Of a stretch of DNA of 44,225 nucleotides, positions 31,287 through 35,886 are shown in pieces. The number at the start of each line of letters is the position of its first letter. The stretch's first letter is position 1. The notes under the pieces were generated by a model. That model was not told the DNA's origin and ran no database searches. It worked only from the letters and a program-made list of their open reading frames with translations. Where the stretch lies: the IMG/VR virus record IMGVR_UViG_2744054854_000007; one strand, written 5' to 3'. The stretch is from a virus (taxonomy: Duplodnaviria; Heunggongvirae; Uroviricota; Caudoviricetes). A program made the translations under genes and the position numbers.

Positions 31287-31378
31287 GGAGGGTTGGCCGA
31301 GTGGTTGATGGCACCTCACTGATAATGAGGCGTACGGGCTATAAACCCGTACCGCGGGTTCGAACCCCGCACCCTATT
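31287..31378 (+). tRNA. tRNA-like gene, class-II architecture, Ile-type anticodon loop CUGAUAA (GAU); possibly degenerate
   Basis: Hand-folded: D-arm GCC-GAGTGGTTGAT-GGC; anticodon arm CCTCA-CTGATAA-TGAGG; 23-nt variable hairpin; T-arm GCGGG-TTCGAAC-CCCGC; acceptor has one G:A mismatch and no encoded CCA; followed by a terminator. Confidence 0.4.
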
Positions 31379-31600: not shown

Positions 31601-32078
31601 TTAGTCCTTCACAAAGATAATCCAATGGGTTTTGTCGTTCTTCCCAGTACGCTGACCAATTGCAGGTTTCACGTCAGTAAGAGCTAAAATCTGGCTAACC
31701 GGGATCTGCGTTTCGTTCCATTTGAAAATAAGCACGCCGCGCGGCCACAGCACCCGAAACGCTTCTTTGAAACCGGCGCGTAAGTCAGAGCGCCACGTTT
31801 TTTTTGTTCAGTCGCCCGTATTTTTTACCCATCCAGGCAGACTGGCCCACGCGCTCGAGGTGCGGCGGGTCAAACACCACAACCGGAAAAGAAGAATCAG
31901 CGAACGGCAGTGAACGAAAGTCTGAAATCAGGTCTGGACTGATAACCAGGCGGCGACCGTCGCACAGTTCGTGCTCTTCGGCGCGAATATCAGTGAACAC
32001 GGCGCGGGTGTCCTGCTTGTTGAACCAGAACATGCGGGAGCCGCAGCACATATCAAGAATCGTCGTGTTGTCGGTCAT
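31601..32078 (-). pseudogene. Dam-like DNA methyltransferase interrupted by a frameshift at an A8 homopolymer
   Basis: N-terminal frame MTDNTTILDMCCGSRMFWFNKQ...VVVFDPPHLE stops 4 codons after the A8 run (31798-31805); the shifted frame continues ...TWRSDLRAGFKEAFRVLWPRGVLIFKWNE... to TAA at about 31601; removing one A restores a ~159-aa ORF. Confidence 0.5.
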
Positions 32079-32386
32079 ACTGATGCTCTCCCGTAAAACG
32101 CCAGTACACGCTGCATAGCCGGACTTGTGCGGCATACGGATGTGACCATGTTTTTTCTCACTTTCGATTTGAGTTGCTTGATATTCTGCTCGCCACCGGG
32201 CTGAAGCGAATAGACCGGGCGATGCGGCTCGCCAGTGCGGATTACTACCGTTTTGCGTACTAGGTGAAGCAGCAGGTTGTGTGCCTTCTTGCAGTCGCAT
32301 CCCAGCAGGCTCTGAACCTGACGAGGGGTTATGGTCTGGTTAACCCGAAGGAAATCGACGATTGCCCACAGTGATTTGCTTGCCAT
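32075..32386 (-). CDS. Hypothetical protein (103 aa)
   Basis: ATG 32386; stop overlaps methyltransferase ATG (ATGA). Confidence 0.45.
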   Translation of the reverse strand: MASKSLWAIVDFLRVNQTITPRQVQSLLGCDCKKAHNLLLHLVRKTVVIRTGEPHRPVYSLQPGGEQNIKQLKSKVRKNMVTSVCRTSPAMQRVLAFYGRASV

Positions 32387-32404
32387 AGTGATTTGCCCTC
32401 GAAG

Positions 32405-33154
32405 TTATTTAACGATCCGGAGATGGCTAACGTTCTTGCGATAGCTGCCCCAGTCAAAGTTCACCCACATTCCGCCATCCATCTGGAGACGGTCGATAAC
32501 CCGCGCACCCAACGCCACGAGAAGCTCGTCGTGGTTCAGGTTTGTCAGGATCCCCACCGGACGCATCGACGACAGGCGACGGTCGATAACCTGATTCAGA
32601 ATGACTTTCTCGCCGTTACTTCCACGCTGAATACCGACTTCATCCAGCACCAGCAGATCGACTTTGCAGAGGTCATCCAGCAATGCGGCCTCTGACTGAC
32701 CACCGTCGTAGCACTCGCGAACGCGTAGCATCAGGTCAGGGATAGTGACGACCAGCACGCTATGCCCGCCAGAAAGCAAATGATTTCCGATTGCTGCAGC
32801 GAGATGGTTTTTCCCGGTACCAGGGCCACCGCTAAACACGAAGCTCGCGAACCCAGCACCGAAATTCTGTGCGTAGCTCTTTGCCATCGTGAAGGCTTTG
32901 CGCTGCCCTTCCCCGGATACATGGTAATTCTCGAAAGTGCAGCTGCGGTGCAGGCTTTGAATTCCTGAGCGACCGAAAATTTTCTCTGTCCGGGCTTTCT
33001 GATTCAGCCTGTCCAGTTCTTCACACCGCTTCAGGCCTTCTTCCCTCTGCCATGCCAGCAGCTCTTCCGCGCTGGTGAACTTCGGCTGAACTCCTGGCGG
33101 AATGAGTTTCTTCAGGCGCTCAAGAGCGCTGCCAGAATTAACAATGTTTTTCAC
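32405..33154 (-). CDS. DnaC-like replicative helicase loader (AAA+ ATPase)
   Basis: 249 aa; Walker A GGPGTGKNHLAAA and Walker B LLVLDEVG; GTG start with AGGGGG SD two nt after the O-like stop. Confidence 0.85.
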   Translation of the reverse strand: MKNIVNSGSALERLKKLIPPGVQPKFTSAEELLAWQREEGLKRCEELDRLNQKARTEKIFGRSGIQSLHRSCTFENYHVSGEGQRKAFTMAKSYAQNFGAGFASFVFSGGPGTGKNHLAAAIGNHLLSGGHSVLVVTIPDLMLRVRECYDGGQSEAALLDDLCKVDLLVLDEVGIQRGSNGEKVILNQVIDRRLSSMRPVGILTNLNHDELLVALGARVIDRLQMDGGMWVNFDWGSYRKNVSHLRIVK

Positions 33155-33156
33155 CG

Positions 33157-34104
33157 TTACCCCCTGAACCCGGTCGGGATGGTTTTATCTGGCTCAGAAA
33201 TTCGGTTGGGATCTCGCTGTCCAACATGGACGGTCCTTTGGCCGTGACCACGCGATTGCAACAGACTGTTGGCAAAGGTCTGCTCCCAAGCCAACTGGTG
33301 TTTAACCTTGCCGTCAGGTATCCAGTAATCACGGAATTGCTGGAGCTCTTCAGCGGTGTAACCTGGCTCAGTGCCGACGTTCTTACCCCAGAGCGCAGCC
33401 TGACGCACGAAGTCTGGAGACGGGGTCCATGAGTCAGTGATCGGAAATTTACCCAATGGGCCAAAATCCAGACCGGGCCCAAAATCCTCGTTCTGAGGTT
33501 TGGGAGGGATAGCTGGCAGAGGTGGGTGATTTCCAGAAATATCATCCCCAGAATGACTTCCGCCCGCGCGTTCTCTCTCTGGGTTTAGATCTTCTCTTCT
33601 CTTCTCTTCTCTGTGGTTACGCGTTACGTTATTAGTAACGTTACTCGTTACGTTACTTTCCTGGAGTTTTTTCCGTTCACGAAACTCCTTCTGGCGCTGC
33701 GCATTTGTCTTGGCCGTAGCTGAGCGCATATCACCTGACGTATTGTATTCATTGAAGTTTGGAAGAATGACGCAGTTATTCTCCGCATCATAAATGGCCC
33801 AGCCTACGGTTGATAATGCAGCCCCAAAACCGGGTACTCCGACAATATCATCGATATCAGACAGGTCTGCATTTTCAAATACACCGTTACGCGAGTGTTC
33901 ATTTGCCGCAGACCAAAACGTTACTAGTAACGACACCGTAACGTTACGGGTTACGTTACGCGTTACAACGTCTGATAACGTGGTGTTATGCGAAAGTGTG
34001 AACATTTTTCCCACCTCCGGTGAACGCTCCAGTATTCGCGCAATTCCGTTCACCTTCGGGCTGGTGACCAGTGATGTACGCATCTTTATCCAGTCTCCGG
34101 CCAT
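33157..34104 (-). CDS. Replication initiator/replisome organiser (lambda O-like) with embedded iteron-like repeats
   Basis: ATG 34104 with AGGAGG SD; repeated NVT codons encoded by GTTAC repeats; position upstream of DnaC-like gene. Confidence 0.65.
   Translation of the reverse strand: MAGDWIKMRTSLVTSPKVNGIARILERSPEVGKMFTLSHNTTLSDVVTRNVTRNVTVSLLVTFWSAANEHSRNGVFENADLSDIDDIVGVPGFGAALSTVGWAIYDAENNCVILPNFNEYNTSGDMRSATAKTNAQRQKEFRERKKLQESNVTSNVTNNVTRNHREEKRREDLNPERERAGGSHSGDDISGNHPPLPAIPPKPQNEDFGPGLDFGPLGKFPITDSWTPSPDFVRQAALWGKNVGTEPGYTAEELQQFRDYWIPDGKVKHQLAWEQTFANSLLQSRGHGQRTVHVGQRDPNRISEPDKTIPTGFRG
33613..33660. repeat. Iteron-like GTTAC(G) repeat cluster A (candidate ori) inside O-like gene
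   Basis: About five direct GTTAC units plus inverted TAGTAAC within 48 bp; preceded by (CTTCT)x4 microsatellite at about 33591-33612. Confidence 0.5.
33917..33970. repeat. Iteron-like GTTAC/GTAAC repeat cluster B inside O-like gene
   Basis: GTTACTAGTAAC and CGTAACGTTACG palindromes plus direct GTTACG units. Confidence 0.5.
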
Positions 34105-34271
34105 TAAGTCCTCCTGAAGAATAATTAAGGGAAGATTTATCCAGTCGCGGTCCGACACGCTGGCAAAACAATTTGTTGTTAGGCATACTTACCCCGCAAT
34201 GATTTCGCAATGAATTGCACCAGAAAGCCGTTGGTGTTCGCGCACCGCGGCTTTCGCCATTTTTGAACCGG

Positions 34272-34811
34272 TCATATAGCCCCCAGCATCATCTGCACCA
34301 TCTCCATCAGCGGCCCGGTTAAGCCAGGGTCAACGCGGTACATCTCCACGATCCCCTCGCTCAACTCTTTCAGCTTCTGATGACGTGGAGCATCCATCGC
34401 GACGGCTATCTTCGCTTCGCTGGTTTCTTTCTCCATACGCGCCAGACGAGCCATAACGTTGTCTTCTGGTAGCAGACGGTTGCGGTACTTGAGCGGCAGA
34501 ACAGCAAGAATTGCCGGAGTCAGCTGGCGGACGTTCTCGCGGTATCTTTCACTGTTGAAATGGTTGTCCAGGAAGCGGAAAAGCTTCTGACGCTGTCGGC
34601 TGAGGTCATCAGGGAAAGTGATCTCGTCTCCCCCTTGCGCCTGGTACTCTTCGATGATCAGAGCAGAAACGACATCCTGACCATCTACACCCGCCCATGA
34701 GCGAACGGCATCACGAATATCTTCATGGCTAGGTCCCTTGCACGCTTGAGCACGATTTATCACCGCCTGCTGCGGCGATCCTGTATCCTGGTAAAACGTA
34801 AGTGATTGCAT
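34272..34811 (-). CDS. Putative CII-like lysogeny regulator
   Basis: 179 aa; position between cro-like and O-like genes; family uncertain. Confidence 0.35.
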   Translation of the reverse strand: MQSLTFYQDTGSPQQAVINRAQACKGPSHEDIRDAVRSWAGVDGQDVVSALIIEEYQAQGGDEITFPDDLSRQRQKLFRFLDNHFNSERYRENVRQLTPAILAVLPLKYRNRLLPEDNVMARLARMEKETSEAKIAVAMDAPRHQKLKELSEGIVEMYRVDPGLTGPLMEMVQMMLGAI

Positions 34812-34842
34812 AGTGCAGTCCCTTGATGGTTAGCGCCGCCGG

Positions 34843-35073
34843 TCAGGCGGCTGAATGTGGATGCGGAAACAATTCAGGAAGGTCGGGACGGAATTCATGA
34901 GCTTGAATCTGTCCTTCGCTTGCCTTTACCAAAACAGGAACATGGATCGGGGAGATTTGTTTTTTCCCATTTAACCAGTCACAGACCGTGGATTGGGCCT
35001 TACCACATCGCTTCGCTAGCTCTTTCTGACTACCGGCGATTGCAATCGCTTTTTCTACAGCAGGGTTTTTCAT
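34843..35073 (-). CDS. Cro-like HTH regulator
   Basis: Internal ATG 35073; HTH GSQKELAKRCGKAQSTVCDWLNG; divergent from the CI-like gene across operator palindromes. Confidence 0.65.
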   Translation of the reverse strand: MKNPAVEKAIAIAGSQKELAKRCGKAQSTVCDWLNGKKQISPIHVPVLVKASEGQIQAHEFRPDLPELFPHPHSAA

Positions 35074-35109
35074 AATCGCTCCTTCTATCAATTTAGGTTG
35101 ATTATGTTT

Positions 35110-35169
35110 ATCGCTTTAACGAATGTCAATCGCCTATGCGATTTTTTGCTTATTAATCGCTGTGGCGAT
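35110..35169. promoter_or_regulatory. Operator region: three ATCGC-N4/5-GCGAT-type sites between cro-like and cI-like genes
   Basis: Palindromes ATCGCctatGCGAT (about 35129-35142) and ATCGCtgtgGCGAT (about 35156-35169) plus imperfect ATCGCtttaaCGAAT (about 35110-35124). Confidence 0.6.
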
Positions 35170-35202
35170 AATATTTATGAAGGTTATTAGGGGGTATCTT
35201 TA

Positions 35203-35886
35203 ATGAGTTTTTCTGAGCGATTAGATCGCGCAATGAATGAGGCGGGTTATACACAGGGCAAGCTAGCTAAGGCAGTTGGCATGGCACAGTCAAGTGTTAA
35301 CAAGCTGCTAAATGGTGCATCAAGCTCAAGAAAAACGGTCGAGATAGCTTCTGTTCTCAATGTTCGCCCTGAATGGCTTTCCACGGGATCCGGACCGATG
35401 CGTAACGATGGCCAGCTACCGCCTCCCATTACCGCGACAAAAAAAGACTCAAACATATTCAGAGTTGACGTACTTGACCTGACATTTAGCGCGGGGCCAG
35501 GTTCTTTCATGATTTCTGAGTTTGTTGAGGTTCTACACGCCATTGAGTTCACAACCGAACACGCTCGTTCACTCTTCGGAAATCGTTCTCAGGAAGACGT
35601 AAAAGTAATGACGGTCGATGGCGACAGCATGTGTCCAACTATACAGTCTGGTGACAGATTGTTTTTCGATATTTCTGTAAGAAACTTCAAGGTCGACGGT
35701 GTTTATGCGTTCGTTTTCGGACAACATTTCCATGTGAAGCGCTTGCAGATGCAGGGCGATAGGTTGGCAGTTTTGTCTGATAACTCAGCTTATGAGAAGT
35801 GGTACATTAACGAAGGTAATCAGGATCAACTCTACGTAATGGGTAAGGCATTGATTCATGAATCAATAAAGTATAACCGATTGTAA
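35203..35886 (+). CDS. CI-like repressor (HTH + S24 LexA-type autopeptidase domain)
   Basis: 227 aa; N-terminal HTH QGKLAKAVGMAQSSVNKLLNG; C-terminal GDSM Ser and downstream Lys in the S24-type arrangement. Confidence 0.85.
   Translation: MSFSERLDRAMNEAGYTQGKLAKAVGMAQSSVNKLLNGASSSRKTVEIASVLNVRPEWLSTGSGPMRNDGQLPPPITATKKDSNIFRVDVLDLTFSAGPGSFMISEFVEVLHAIEFTTEHARSLFGNRSQEDVKVMTVDGDSMCPTIQSGDRLFFDISVRNFKVDGVYAFVFGQHFHVKRLQMQGDRLAVLSDNSAYEKWYINEGNQDQLYVMGKALIHESIKYNRL

What the first reader, a model, noticed from the sequence alone, without database searches (positions are those of the whole stretch)
33571..33970. Two iteron-like GTTAC clusters and a (CTTCT)n microsatellite embedded in the O-like replication gene
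Seen in sequence: cluster A (about 33613-33660) and cluster B (about 33917-33970), roughly 260 bp apart, are dense in direct GTTAC(G) units and inverted GTAAC/TAGTAAC units and translate as repeated NVT codons; between and upstream lies (CTTCT)x4 (about 33591-33612) and a short (CT)n. Established: the lambda origin is a set of iterons inside gene O. Inference: these are initiator-binding sites defining ori; two separated clusters are unusual. The pentanucleotide repeat inside a coding region is a potential slippage hotspot.
Basis: partly seen in the sequence, partly recalled or inferred. Interest (0 to 1): 0.4.

Follow-up and report, generated by a model that had tools for sequence, protein, structure and literature searches.

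The report
Phage replication origin inside initiator gene
The repeats are real and are most likely the prophage's replication origin: two sets of initiator-binding repeats plus a nearly invariant purine-only DNA tract, all written into the coding sequence of the initiator gene and shared by many phages.

Summary

They lie on the minus strand in a 315-aa replication-initiator gene (33157-34104). This gene is not a lambda O homologue. It has an unclassified winged-helix-like N-domain, a disordered linker and a DnaT-type ssDNA-binding C-domain, and a DnaC-like loader gene follows it.

Comparison with about 250 related loci shows selection on the DNA itself:
- Synonymous sites are fixed in both clusters and in the tract, but vary freely elsewhere in the gene.
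- Relatives with a different N-domain subtype carry a different hexamer (GTCCGC, GTCACG, GTAGAC and others), and the hexamer changes in both clusters together.
- The "microsatellite" is the most conserved element. AGAGAAGAGAAGAGAAGAGA is exact in 41 of 49 non-redundant homologues (gene GC 0.43-0.67).
- The tract is read in more than one frame. It also sits after iterons in genes with other N-domains (DUF1376, Lin1244_N, Phage_rep_org_N).
- Its length does not vary among close relatives, so it is not a slippage hotspot.

Best reading: an iteron-type origin laid out like lambda ori or SPP1 oriL. Cluster A plus the polypurine tract form the core, and cluster B is an auxiliary site. No experiment supports this yet, and I found no description of it in the literature I could search.

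The parts
33157..34104 (-). Replication-initiator gene (315 aa, starts MAGDWIKMR). A longer GTG-initiated ORF reaches 34158.
   Evidence: ORF list. PGAP annotates the same 315-aa CDS as 'DnaT-like ssDNA-binding domain-containing protein'. PHROG 2509 'replication initiation protein', E 3.3e-89. No Pfam Phage_rep_O hit.
33742..34104 (-). Coding region of the folded N-terminal domain (aa 1-121). Winged-helix-like; presumed iteron-binding domain.
33886..33970 (-). Iteron cluster B (cluster 1 in gene order): GTWACG units at 12-bp phase, including the palindromes CCGTAACGTTACGG and GTTACTAGTAAC. It encodes the N-terminal half of helix 49-70.
   Evidence: Synonymous sites are fixed in 37 non-redundant relatives (ACG 0.90, CGT 0.82, GTW 100%; H/Hbg 0.53 against 0.91 elsewhere; p = 4e-5). 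The hexamer type co-varies with cluster A across subfamilies.
33742..33762 (-). Third zone of synonymous-site fixation (CCA AAC TTC AAT GAA TAC AAT). Role unknown; it lies between the two iteron clusters.
   Evidence: TTC in 37/37, GAA in 35/35 and TAC in 33/33 relatives. H/Hbg 0.42, p = 3e-5.
33613..33657 (-). Iteron cluster A (cluster 2): 3.5 units of the 12-bp repeat NGTRACGTAACG, ending 3 nt before the tract. It encodes SNVTSNVTNNVTRNH in a disordered linker.
   Evidence: GTA is used at 0.77-0.92 and ACG at 0.71-0.93 of the conserved V and T codons. 12 bp is the dominant spacing, and the last GTWAC lies 3 nt from the tract in 23 of 35 genes. Linker pLDDT is below 50. One close relative (L055) lacks exactly one 12-bp unit.
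33590..33612 (-). Polypurine tract AGAGAAGAGAAGAGAAGAGAAGA, seen on the + strand as (CTTCT)n. It encodes REEKRRE and contains a (AGAGA)4 mirror repeat. Proposed unwinding or priming core of the origin.
   Evidence: Codons are identical in all sequences that keep the consensus residue at each position (31-35 of 37 relatives per codon), including the rare AGA codon. The exact 20-mer is present in 41 of 49 non-redundant homologues with gene GC 0.43-0.67. At least 120 viral contigs carry the exact 21-mer. 91 of 111 distinct loci have 3 or more copies of a hexamer within 72 nt upstream, against 13 of 111 downstream. The tract is read in three frames. It is unique in the window.
33238..33447 (-). 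Coding region of the C-terminal DnaT-type ssDNA-binding domain.
   Evidence: Pfam PF17948, 49.1 bits against a cutoff of 25. Foldseek to 4ou6 (DnaT84-153 with ssDNA), E 3.6e-5, TM 0.93. Profile against PDB hits 6aep at 3.9e-17.
32405..33154 (-). DnaC-like helicase-loader gene immediately downstream.
   Evidence: NCBIfam PRK12377, 440 bits against a cutoff of 389. The DnaC equivalog model scores 316 bits (cutoff 357). PHROG 50, E 9e-80.
35101..35129 (-). pR-like promoter (TTGACA-17-CATAAT). It would drive the cro-like gene, the cII/YdaT-like gene, the initiator and the loader, sending transcription through the proposed origin.
   Evidence: Consensus scan, 11 of 12 matches. Gene order.

Best explanation
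The region is the prophage's origin of replication, embedded in the gene of its own initiator.

Proposed mechanism:
1. The initiator's N-terminal winged-helix-like domain binds the GTWACG iterons.
2. Cluster A (33613-33657) abuts a 23-nt polypurine tract (33590-33612). Together they form the origin core, in DNA that encodes a disordered protein linker.
3. Cluster B (33886-33970), about 300 bp upstream inside the N-domain coding sequence, is a second array of the same sites. It probably loops to cluster A, or titrates or handcuffs initiator, as the second iteron sets of P1, F and P4 do.
4. Initiator assembly on supercoiled DNA opens the duplex at or beside the tract. Transcription from the pR-like promoter may help, because it makes a purine-rich RNA over the tract.
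5. The C-terminal DnaT-type domain binds the exposed single strand, and the adjacent DnaC-like loader brings in host DnaB.

Shown here: the repeats exist, the DNA sequence itself is under selection, the hexamer co-varies with initiator subtype in both clusters, and the domain folds are as stated.

Inferred: protein-DNA binding, unwinding at the tract, looping, and that replication starts here.
For: 1. Selection on DNA rather than protein. In 37 non-redundant relatives, conserved-residue columns elsewhere keep near-background codon diversity (H/Hbg 0.91). The value falls to 0.53 in cluster B, 0.36 in cluster A and 0.00 in the tract (Mann-Whitney p from 4e-5 to 8e-8). The GTCCGC subfamily shows the same pattern.
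2. Conservation across hosts. Both clusters keep their positions in genes of GC 0.43-0.67.
3. Co-variation. The epsilon15-like subfamily, whose N-domain is divergent, has GTCCGC x2 + GCGGAC x2 in place of GTWACG, in front of the same tract. Across 81 non-redundant genes, the hexamer found before the tract recurs at least twice in the 5' zone in 64. It does so in 0 of 81 equal-length stretches 3' of the tract, and in 8.7% of non-cognate comparisons.
4. Independence from the reading frame. The tract is read in frames 0, 2 and 1 in 89, 24 and 2 of 117 distinct loci. It also occurs in genes with DUF1376, Lin1244_N and Phage_rep_org_N N-domains, which share only the REEKRRE segment with this family.
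5. Protein structure. Cluster A and the tract encode a disordered linker (pLDDT < 50). The N-domain is folded and the C-domain has the DnaT ssDNA-binding fold.
6. Genomic context. The module runs repressor / cro-like / cII-like / initiator / DnaC-like loader, with a pR-like promoter.
7. Precedent. The lambda origin (iterons plus an AT-rich tract) lies in the middle of gene O and needs transcriptional activation (PMC7466680). SPP1 oriL (iterons plus an unwinding element) is embedded in gene 38, and G38P binds two separate regions (PMC5737612).
Against: - There are no experimental data for this family. No rep_origin is annotated in epsilon15, SPN1S, CP2 or TL-2011b.
- There is no conventional long AT-rich unwinding element. 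The tract is 39% GC and the sequence after it is about 55% GC.
- Cluster B also encodes a well-folded helix, so protein constraint contributes there.
- A few relatives lack cluster 1 (L083-L085), and one lacks the tract (L003).
- Fixed synonymous sites could also reflect an RNA-level or regulatory role.
Confidence: 0.72

Rival explanations
1. The repeats are binding sites for the initiator or another regulator, but they act in gene regulation rather than as the origin. For example, they could block transcription or autorepress the initiator/loader operon, while the real origin lies elsewhere.
For: Cluster B lies only about 140 nt into the gene, downstream of the pR-like promoter. Many plasmid Rep proteins autoregulate through inverted repeats (established knowledge). 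The hexamer co-variation shows only that the two clusters share a binder, not that replication starts here.
Against: Cluster A abuts a nearly invariant polypurine element in the linker-coding DNA, which is where lambda and SPP1 place their origins (PMC7466680, PMC5737612). No other iteron-like array or tract exists in the window. Regulation alone does not explain a tract shared by several initiator families.
Confidence: 0.1
2. The constraint acts on RNA or translation. The tract would be a run of rare AGA codons, or a purine-rich mRNA site bound by Hfq, S1 or a small RNA, that throttles initiator synthesis. The GTAACG repeats would form mRNA structure.
For: AGA is a rare arginine codon and tandem AGA codons occur in every frame of the pentamer repeat. 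The purine strand is the sense strand in 115 of 117 distinct loci.
Against: Codon rarity does not require the GAA/GAG/AAG choices to be fixed. The upstream repeats are short hexamers in direct and inverted orientation at 11-13 bp spacing, as protein-binding DNA sites are, and they differ between subfamilies while the tract stays the same. Rfam finds nothing.
Confidence: 0.07
3. The tract is chiefly a recombination linker. This short identical sequence at the domain boundary would let phages swap origin-specific N-modules and host-specific C-modules, and the iterons would merely travel with the N-module.
For: Many homologues match only residues 1 to about 161 and then carry unrelated C-termini. 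The tract sits at that junction. 21-33 identical nt is close to the minimum length for homologous exchange (established knowledge). L144 shows recombination between the clusters.
Against: Near-perfect purifying selection on 20 or more nt, while the flanks are saturated with change, needs a direct function. Selection for evolvability alone is weak. This reading is compatible with the origin reading as a by-product.
Confidence: 0.05
4. The repeats are protein features only: NVT peptide repeats and a charged REEKRRE linker, with no function at the DNA level.
For: The peptide motifs VTRNVTRNVT, NVTxNVT and REEKRRE are conserved in the protein alignment.
Against: Synonymous positions are fixed. The same DNA is read in different frames. 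Cluster A and the tract encode a disordered linker. The hexamer changes in both clusters together.
Confidence: 0.03

Closest known systems
Bacteriophage lambda ori / O protein (with loader P)
   Same: Iterons followed by a purine-rich, low-stability tract, located in the linker-coding middle of the initiator gene. The gene lies in the pR operon and a helicase-loader gene comes next. The initiator has an N-terminal origin-binding part and a C-terminal recruiting part (PMC7466680).
   Different: No sequence or Pfam relationship to O. The iterons are 12-bp units with a GTWACG core, not 19-bp units. A second iteron cluster lies about 300 bp upstream. The tract is a defined (AGAGA)n sequence conserved across hosts rather than a generic AT-rich region. 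The loader is DnaC-type, not P. The C-domain is DnaT-like.
Bacillus phage SPP1 oriL / replisome organiser G38P
   Same: The origin (iterons plus an unwinding element) is embedded in the organiser's own gene, and the organiser binds two discrete regions (PMC5737612). Some relatives that share this N-domain carry a PF09524 C-terminus, the family to which that paper assigns G38P. One tract-bearing gene has a Phage_rep_org_N domain.
   Different: The second SPP1 site (oriR) is a separate region of the genome, not within the same gene. The SPP1 unwinding element is AT-rich. This N-domain has no detectable homology to Phage_rep_org_N.
Iteron plasmids P1 (incC/incA) and F (incB/incC), and phage P4 ori/crr (from established knowledge)
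   Same: Two arrays of the same initiator-binding repeats are separated by rep-gene sequence. One array is the origin and the other an auxiliary or control locus that acts by looping or handcuffing.
   Different: In those systems the arrays flank the rep gene or lie kilobases apart. Here both are inside the coding sequence. None of those systems has the polypurine tract.
E. coli primosomal protein DnaT
   Same: The C-terminal ssDNA-binding domain matches by Pfam, by PDB profile search and by fold.
   Different: The NCBIfam DnaT equivalog model scores 84 bits against a cutoff of 201. The N-terminal two-thirds of the protein is unrelated.
Rac prophage ydaS-ydaT-ydaU-ydaV module (oriJ region) of E. 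coli K-12
   Same: Same gene order: repressor, YdaS/cro-like, YdaT/cII-like, initiator, DnaC-like loader. The YdaU linker also carries short repeats (TGTTCAAACA x2 plus an inverted copy) next to an A-rich run, and the protein ends in the same PPGFRG motif.
   Different: The YdaU N-domain is DUF1376, and there is no (AGAGA)n tract.

Membership tests
Lambda O replication-initiator family (Pfam Phage_rep_O) | Sequence match to the O N-terminal origin-binding domain | tested here: not met
   Pfam scans of the full protein and of aa 1-135 give no Phage_rep_O hit. The only hit is the C-terminal DnaT domain.
Iteron-type replication origin | Three or more short repeats at about one helical turn spacing, clustered well beyond chance | tested here: met
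   12-bp period. 20 of the window's 63 GTWACG sites fall within 351 bp, and no shuffle reaches the total count.
Iteron-type replication origin | The repeats co-vary with the initiator's DNA-binding domain | tested here: met
   GTWACG, GTCCGC, GTCACG, GTAGAC and other hexamer types track N-domain subtypes, and both clusters change together.
Iteron-type replication origin | An adjacent DNA-unwinding element | tested here: inconclusive
   A 23-nt polypurine tract (39% GC, mirror repeat) abuts the last iteron, and this region has the lowest GC in the gene (0.38). It is not a classical AT-rich 13-mer region, and unwinding has not been tested.
Iteron-type replication origin | The initiator binds the repeats and replication starts there | not testable with these tools
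   Needs EMSA or footprinting, a mini-replicon assay, and marker-frequency analysis.
PHROG 2509 / epsilon15-type 'replication initiation protein' | Profile match over most of the protein | tested here: met
   E 3.3e-89 over aa 52-333 of the 333-aa ORF. tblastn finds epsilon15, SPN1S and TL-2011b at 27-34% identity.
Primosomal protein DnaT (NCBIfam equivalog NF002770) | Full-length match above the curated cutoff | tested here: not met
   84.1 bits against a cutoff of 201. Only model positions 85-179 match.
DnaT ssDNA-binding domain (PF17948) | Domain match above the gathering score, plus the fold | tested here: met
   49.1 bits against 25. Foldseek to 4ou6 gives TM 0.93.
Hypermutable coding microsatellite (contingency locus) | Repeat copy number varies among close relatives | tested here: not met
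   The tract is 23 nt in all 32 relatives with at least 75% N-terminal identity. It is exact or near-exact in 48 of 49 distant homologues.

The most novel reading that the evidence does not exclude
The (AGAGA)4-6 tract is a sequence-specific origin core shared by several phage replisome-organiser families with no detectable homology to one another (this family, DUF1376, Lin1244_N, Phage_rep_org_N). It would be kept nearly invariant across hosts of 43-67% GC for one of two reasons: a conserved host replication factor reads it, or its purine-rich transcript or mirror-repeat DNA forms an R-loop or triplex that opens the duplex.

In addition, the upstream iteron cluster encodes the very helix of the N-domain that changes whenever iteron specificity changes. 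Binding site and part of its reader would then be written in the same DNA.
Probability: 0.25. Interest if true: 0.85.

Novelty: new variant of a known kind. Interest (0 to 1): 0.62.

Why it matters
If the reading is right, it gives a sequence signature for locating origins in many temperate phages and prophages of Proteobacteria. The signature is locus-specific hexamers at 11-13 bp spacing that end at ...CC|AGAGAAGAGAAGAGAAGAGA. It is present in the isolated phages epsilon15, SPN1S and CP2, whose records annotate no origin in this region.

It also offers a natural series of matched initiator/iteron specificities (GTAACG, GTCCGC, GTCACG, GTAGAC and others) for studying how origin recognition evolves.

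It raises a concrete question as well. Why is a 20-23-nt purine tract held almost invariant inside coding DNA, across several initiator families and a wide range of host GC content?

Finally, it shows that a coding 'microsatellite' can be the most strongly conserved element of a gene rather than a mutable one.

Tried and rejected
- Lambda O membership: rejected, no Pfam or profile match.
- Rfam scan of 32300-35300 at E <= 1: nothing found.
- Slippage or contingency locus: rejected, the tract length is constant.
- Protein-only NVT repeats: rejected by the codon-level and reading-frame analyses.
- Remote homology of the N-domain to DUF1376, Phage_rep_org_N or Lin1244_N: hhalign aligned only the REEKRRE segment. 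This is a weak test because the templates were single sequences.
- Literature: searches for the tract on either strand, for REEKRRE, for epsilon15 with iterons, for DUF1376 with origin, and of the Eru Stx-phage paper all found no description. The Weigel & Seitz 2006 review is not held.
- DnaA-box or IHF-like matches near the clusters: I looked by eye only and found nothing convincing. The TTTATCCAGT repeats at 34085 and 34136 are two mismatches from a DnaA box.
- Plasmids: only 3 PLSDB records encode a relative of the N-domain, so this is essentially a phage system.
- Rac ydaU: checked for the tract as a link to oriJ. It has iterons but no tract.

Full report
**1. What is in the sequence**

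They belong to a gene on the minus strand. On that strand they read as follows.
- Cluster A (33613-33657) is AGTAACGTAACG AGTAACGTTACT AATAACGTAACG CGTAAC, encoding SNVTSNVTNNVTRN.
- The run seen as (CTTCT)4.6 (33590-33612) is the 23-nt polypurine tract AGAGAAGAGAAGAGAAGAGAAGA, encoding REEKRRE.
- Cluster B (33919-33966, with an outlying unit at 33886-33891) is GTA ACG CGT AAC GTA ACC CGT AAC GTT ACG GTG TCG TTA CTA GTA ACG, encoding VTRNVTRNVTVSLLVT.

These are well beyond chance. GTWACG occurs 63 times in the window against 29.3 +/- 5.7 in shuffles, and 20 of those sites fall within 351 bp. The tract is unique in the window.

**2. The gene and its neighbours**

The gene is 33157-34104, 315 aa, starting MAGDWIKMR. 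RefSeq annotates the same CDS in four E. coli genomes.

It is not a lambda O homologue.
- Pfam finds only a C-terminal DnaT DNA-binding domain.
- The N-terminal 135 aa match no Pfam family.
- PHROGs places the protein in family 2509, 'replication initiation protein'.
- tblastn links it at 27-34% identity to the replication proteins of epsilon15, SPN1S and TL-2011b.

The neighbourhood is a Rac-like early region: an S24 repressor, a YdaS/cro-like gene, a YdaT/cII-like gene, this gene, then a DnaC-like loader. A pR-like promoter lies at 35129-35101.

AlphaFold gives three parts.
- A folded N-domain (aa 8-121; modelled alone, pLDDT 86 and pTM 0.80) with helix-turn-helix plus beta-hairpin topology.
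- A disordered linker (aa 151-214, pLDDT < 50).
- A C-domain that superposes on the DnaT ssDNA-binding domain (4ou6, TM 0.93).

**3. Is the constraint on the protein or on the DNA?**

I collected 139 related loci from genomes, viral contigs and metagenomes, using protein patterns taken from other parts of the protein. Both clusters keep their positions, at gene nt ~138-180 and ~448-496, in genes with GC from 0.43 to 0.67.

I then built a codon alignment of 37 non-redundant relatives and measured codon diversity at columns where the residue is conserved.

| Zone | Codon entropy relative to background (H/Hbg) |
|---|---|
| Rest of the gene | 0.91 |
| Cluster B | 0.53 |
| Cluster A | 0.36 |
| Polypurine tract | 0.00 |

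- In cluster B, Thr is ACG in 90% of sequences, Arg is CGT in 82%, and Val is only GTT or GTA.
- In cluster A, GTA ACG dominates.
- In the tract, AGA GAA GAG AAG AGA AGA GAA is used by every sequence that keeps the consensus residue at each position (31-35 of 37 per codon), although AGA is a rare codon.
- Mann-Whitney p values range from 4e-5 to 8e-8.

These internal controls come from the same sequences, so shared ancestry cannot explain the contrast. A protein-only explanation is therefore excluded.

**4. Co-variation**

A second subfamily has a divergent N-domain segment. It includes epsilon15 and SPN1S. It has no GTWACG at all. Instead it carries GTCCGC, GTCCGC, GCGGAC, GCGGAC at 11-13 bp spacing directly before the same tract, and the same four-site array again at gene nt 54-100. 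Synonymous sites are fixed there too.

Other subfamilies use GTCACG, GTAGAC, GGTAACG, GTCCCC or GTGACA, again in both places.

Across 81 non-redundant genes:
- the hexamer found before the tract recurs at least twice in the 5' zone in 64;
- it recurs in 0 of 81 equal-length stretches 3' of the tract;
- non-cognate hexamers recur at least twice in 8.7% of comparisons.

So both clusters are sites for one factor, and that factor's specificity changes with the N-domain. The obvious candidate is the N-domain itself.

**5. The 'microsatellite'**

The tract is not mutable.
- Among 32 close relatives it is always 23 nt. The only length change in the region is the loss of exactly one 12-bp iteron in L055.
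- Among 49 non-redundant homologues found by protein similarity, the 20-mer (AGAGA)4 is exact in 41, differs slightly (interrupted or truncated by a few substitutions) in 7, and is missing in one.

- In 91 of 111 distinct loci, some hexamer occurs three or more times within the 72 nt upstream. This is true downstream in only 13 of 111.
- The usual layout is two direct plus two inverted copies, with the last one abutting the tract (...GCGGACC|AGAG...GCGTTACC|AGAG...GCGTGACC|AGAG).
- The tract is read in frame 0, 2 or 1 in 89, 24 and 2 of 117 distinct loci.
- It also occurs in genes whose N-domains are DUF1376, Lin1244_N or Phage_rep_org_N. Those proteins share only the REEKRRE segment with this family in profile comparison.

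The tract is therefore a DNA element in its own right, combined with many different iteron sets.

**6. Interpretation**

The layout matches the two best-studied phage origins that lie inside initiator genes.
- The lambda origin has iterons and an adjacent AT-rich tract in the middle of O, and depends on transcriptional activation (PMC7466680).
- SPP1 oriL has iterons plus an unwinding element inside gene 38, and G38P binds two regions (PMC5737612).

I conclude that cluster A plus the tract is the origin core. Cluster B is an auxiliary array that could act by looping, handcuffing, titration or autoregulation, as in P1 incA, F incC or P4 crr (established knowledge). The DnaT-type C-domain and the DnaC-like loader would then load DnaB.

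How the tract works is open. It has the lowest GC in the gene and contains a perfect mirror repeat, which gives triplex potential. It is also always purine-rich on the sense strand, so transcription would form an unusually stable RNA-DNA hybrid. These ideas are inference. The near-invariance of the exact sequence hints at sequence-specific recognition by something conserved across hosts.

**7. What remains uncertain**

- No binding, unwinding or initiation has been measured.
- There is no classical AT-rich unwinding element.
- The DNA-binding role of the N-domain rests on fold resemblance and co-variation.
- A regulatory or RNA-level role cannot be fully excluded (see the rival explanations).
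- A third zone of synonymous fixation (33742-33762) is unexplained.

**8. Novelty**

Iteron origins inside initiator genes are a known kind. I found no prior description of three things: an origin for this protein family, the paired iteron arrays, or the shared (AGAGA)n tract. This covers the searchable literature and the annotations of epsilon15, SPN1S, TL-2011b and CP2. That library omits most subscription journals. I therefore rate the finding as a new variant of a known kind, of moderate to high interest.

Noticed in passing
window 33742-33762 (minus strand): CCA AAC TTC AAT GAA TAC AAT (codons 115-121), between the two iteron clusters, is a third zone with fixed synonymous sites in the GTAACG subfamily (TTC 37/37, GAA 35/35, TAC 33/33). 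It may be a host-factor site. By eye it does not resemble an IHF site or a DnaA box.
   Followed up: partly
L144 (IMGVR_UViG_3300045988_040153): In this relative, iteron cluster 1 is fused directly to cluster 2 and the tract (tract at gene nt 96; 183-aa product). This looks like a deletion by recombination between the two arrays.
   Followed up: no
L260 4980-5130 (E. coli K-12 Rac prophage, ydaU): The linker-coding part of ydaU carries TGTTCAAACA twice, plus an inverted TGTTTGAACA, next to an A-rich run. The layout is the same but there is no (AGAGA)n tract. This is a candidate position for the Rac origin oriJ.
   Followed up: partly
L264 (Escherichia phage TL-2011b, gene F365_gp12): GTAACG-type iterons are followed by a variant tract, AGAGGAAGAGGAAGA, and then TATATATA. 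So the tract sequence is not strictly obligatory.
   Followed up: no
window 31287-31378 (+): A 92-nt tRNA-Ile (anticodon GAT) lies inside the prophage, downstream of the replication module. It is unusually long for a tRNA-Ile.
   Followed up: no
window ~31601-32078 (-): RefSeq annotates a frameshifted class I SAM-dependent methyltransferase pseudogene close downstream of the loader gene, after one small hypothetical ORF. A DNA polymerase III theta homologue lies further on.
   Followed up: no
window 33586-33591: A GATC (Dam) site overlaps the 3' end of the tract (AGAAGATCTA). It is shared by many enterobacterial relatives but replaced by GATATA or GATAAA in others.
   Followed up: no
window 34085-34102 and 34136-34153: A direct repeat, TTTATCCAGTC(T/G)C, occurs at the 5' end of the initiator gene and just upstream of it. 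Each copy is two mismatches from a DnaA box. I did not test whether it is conserved.
   Followed up: no
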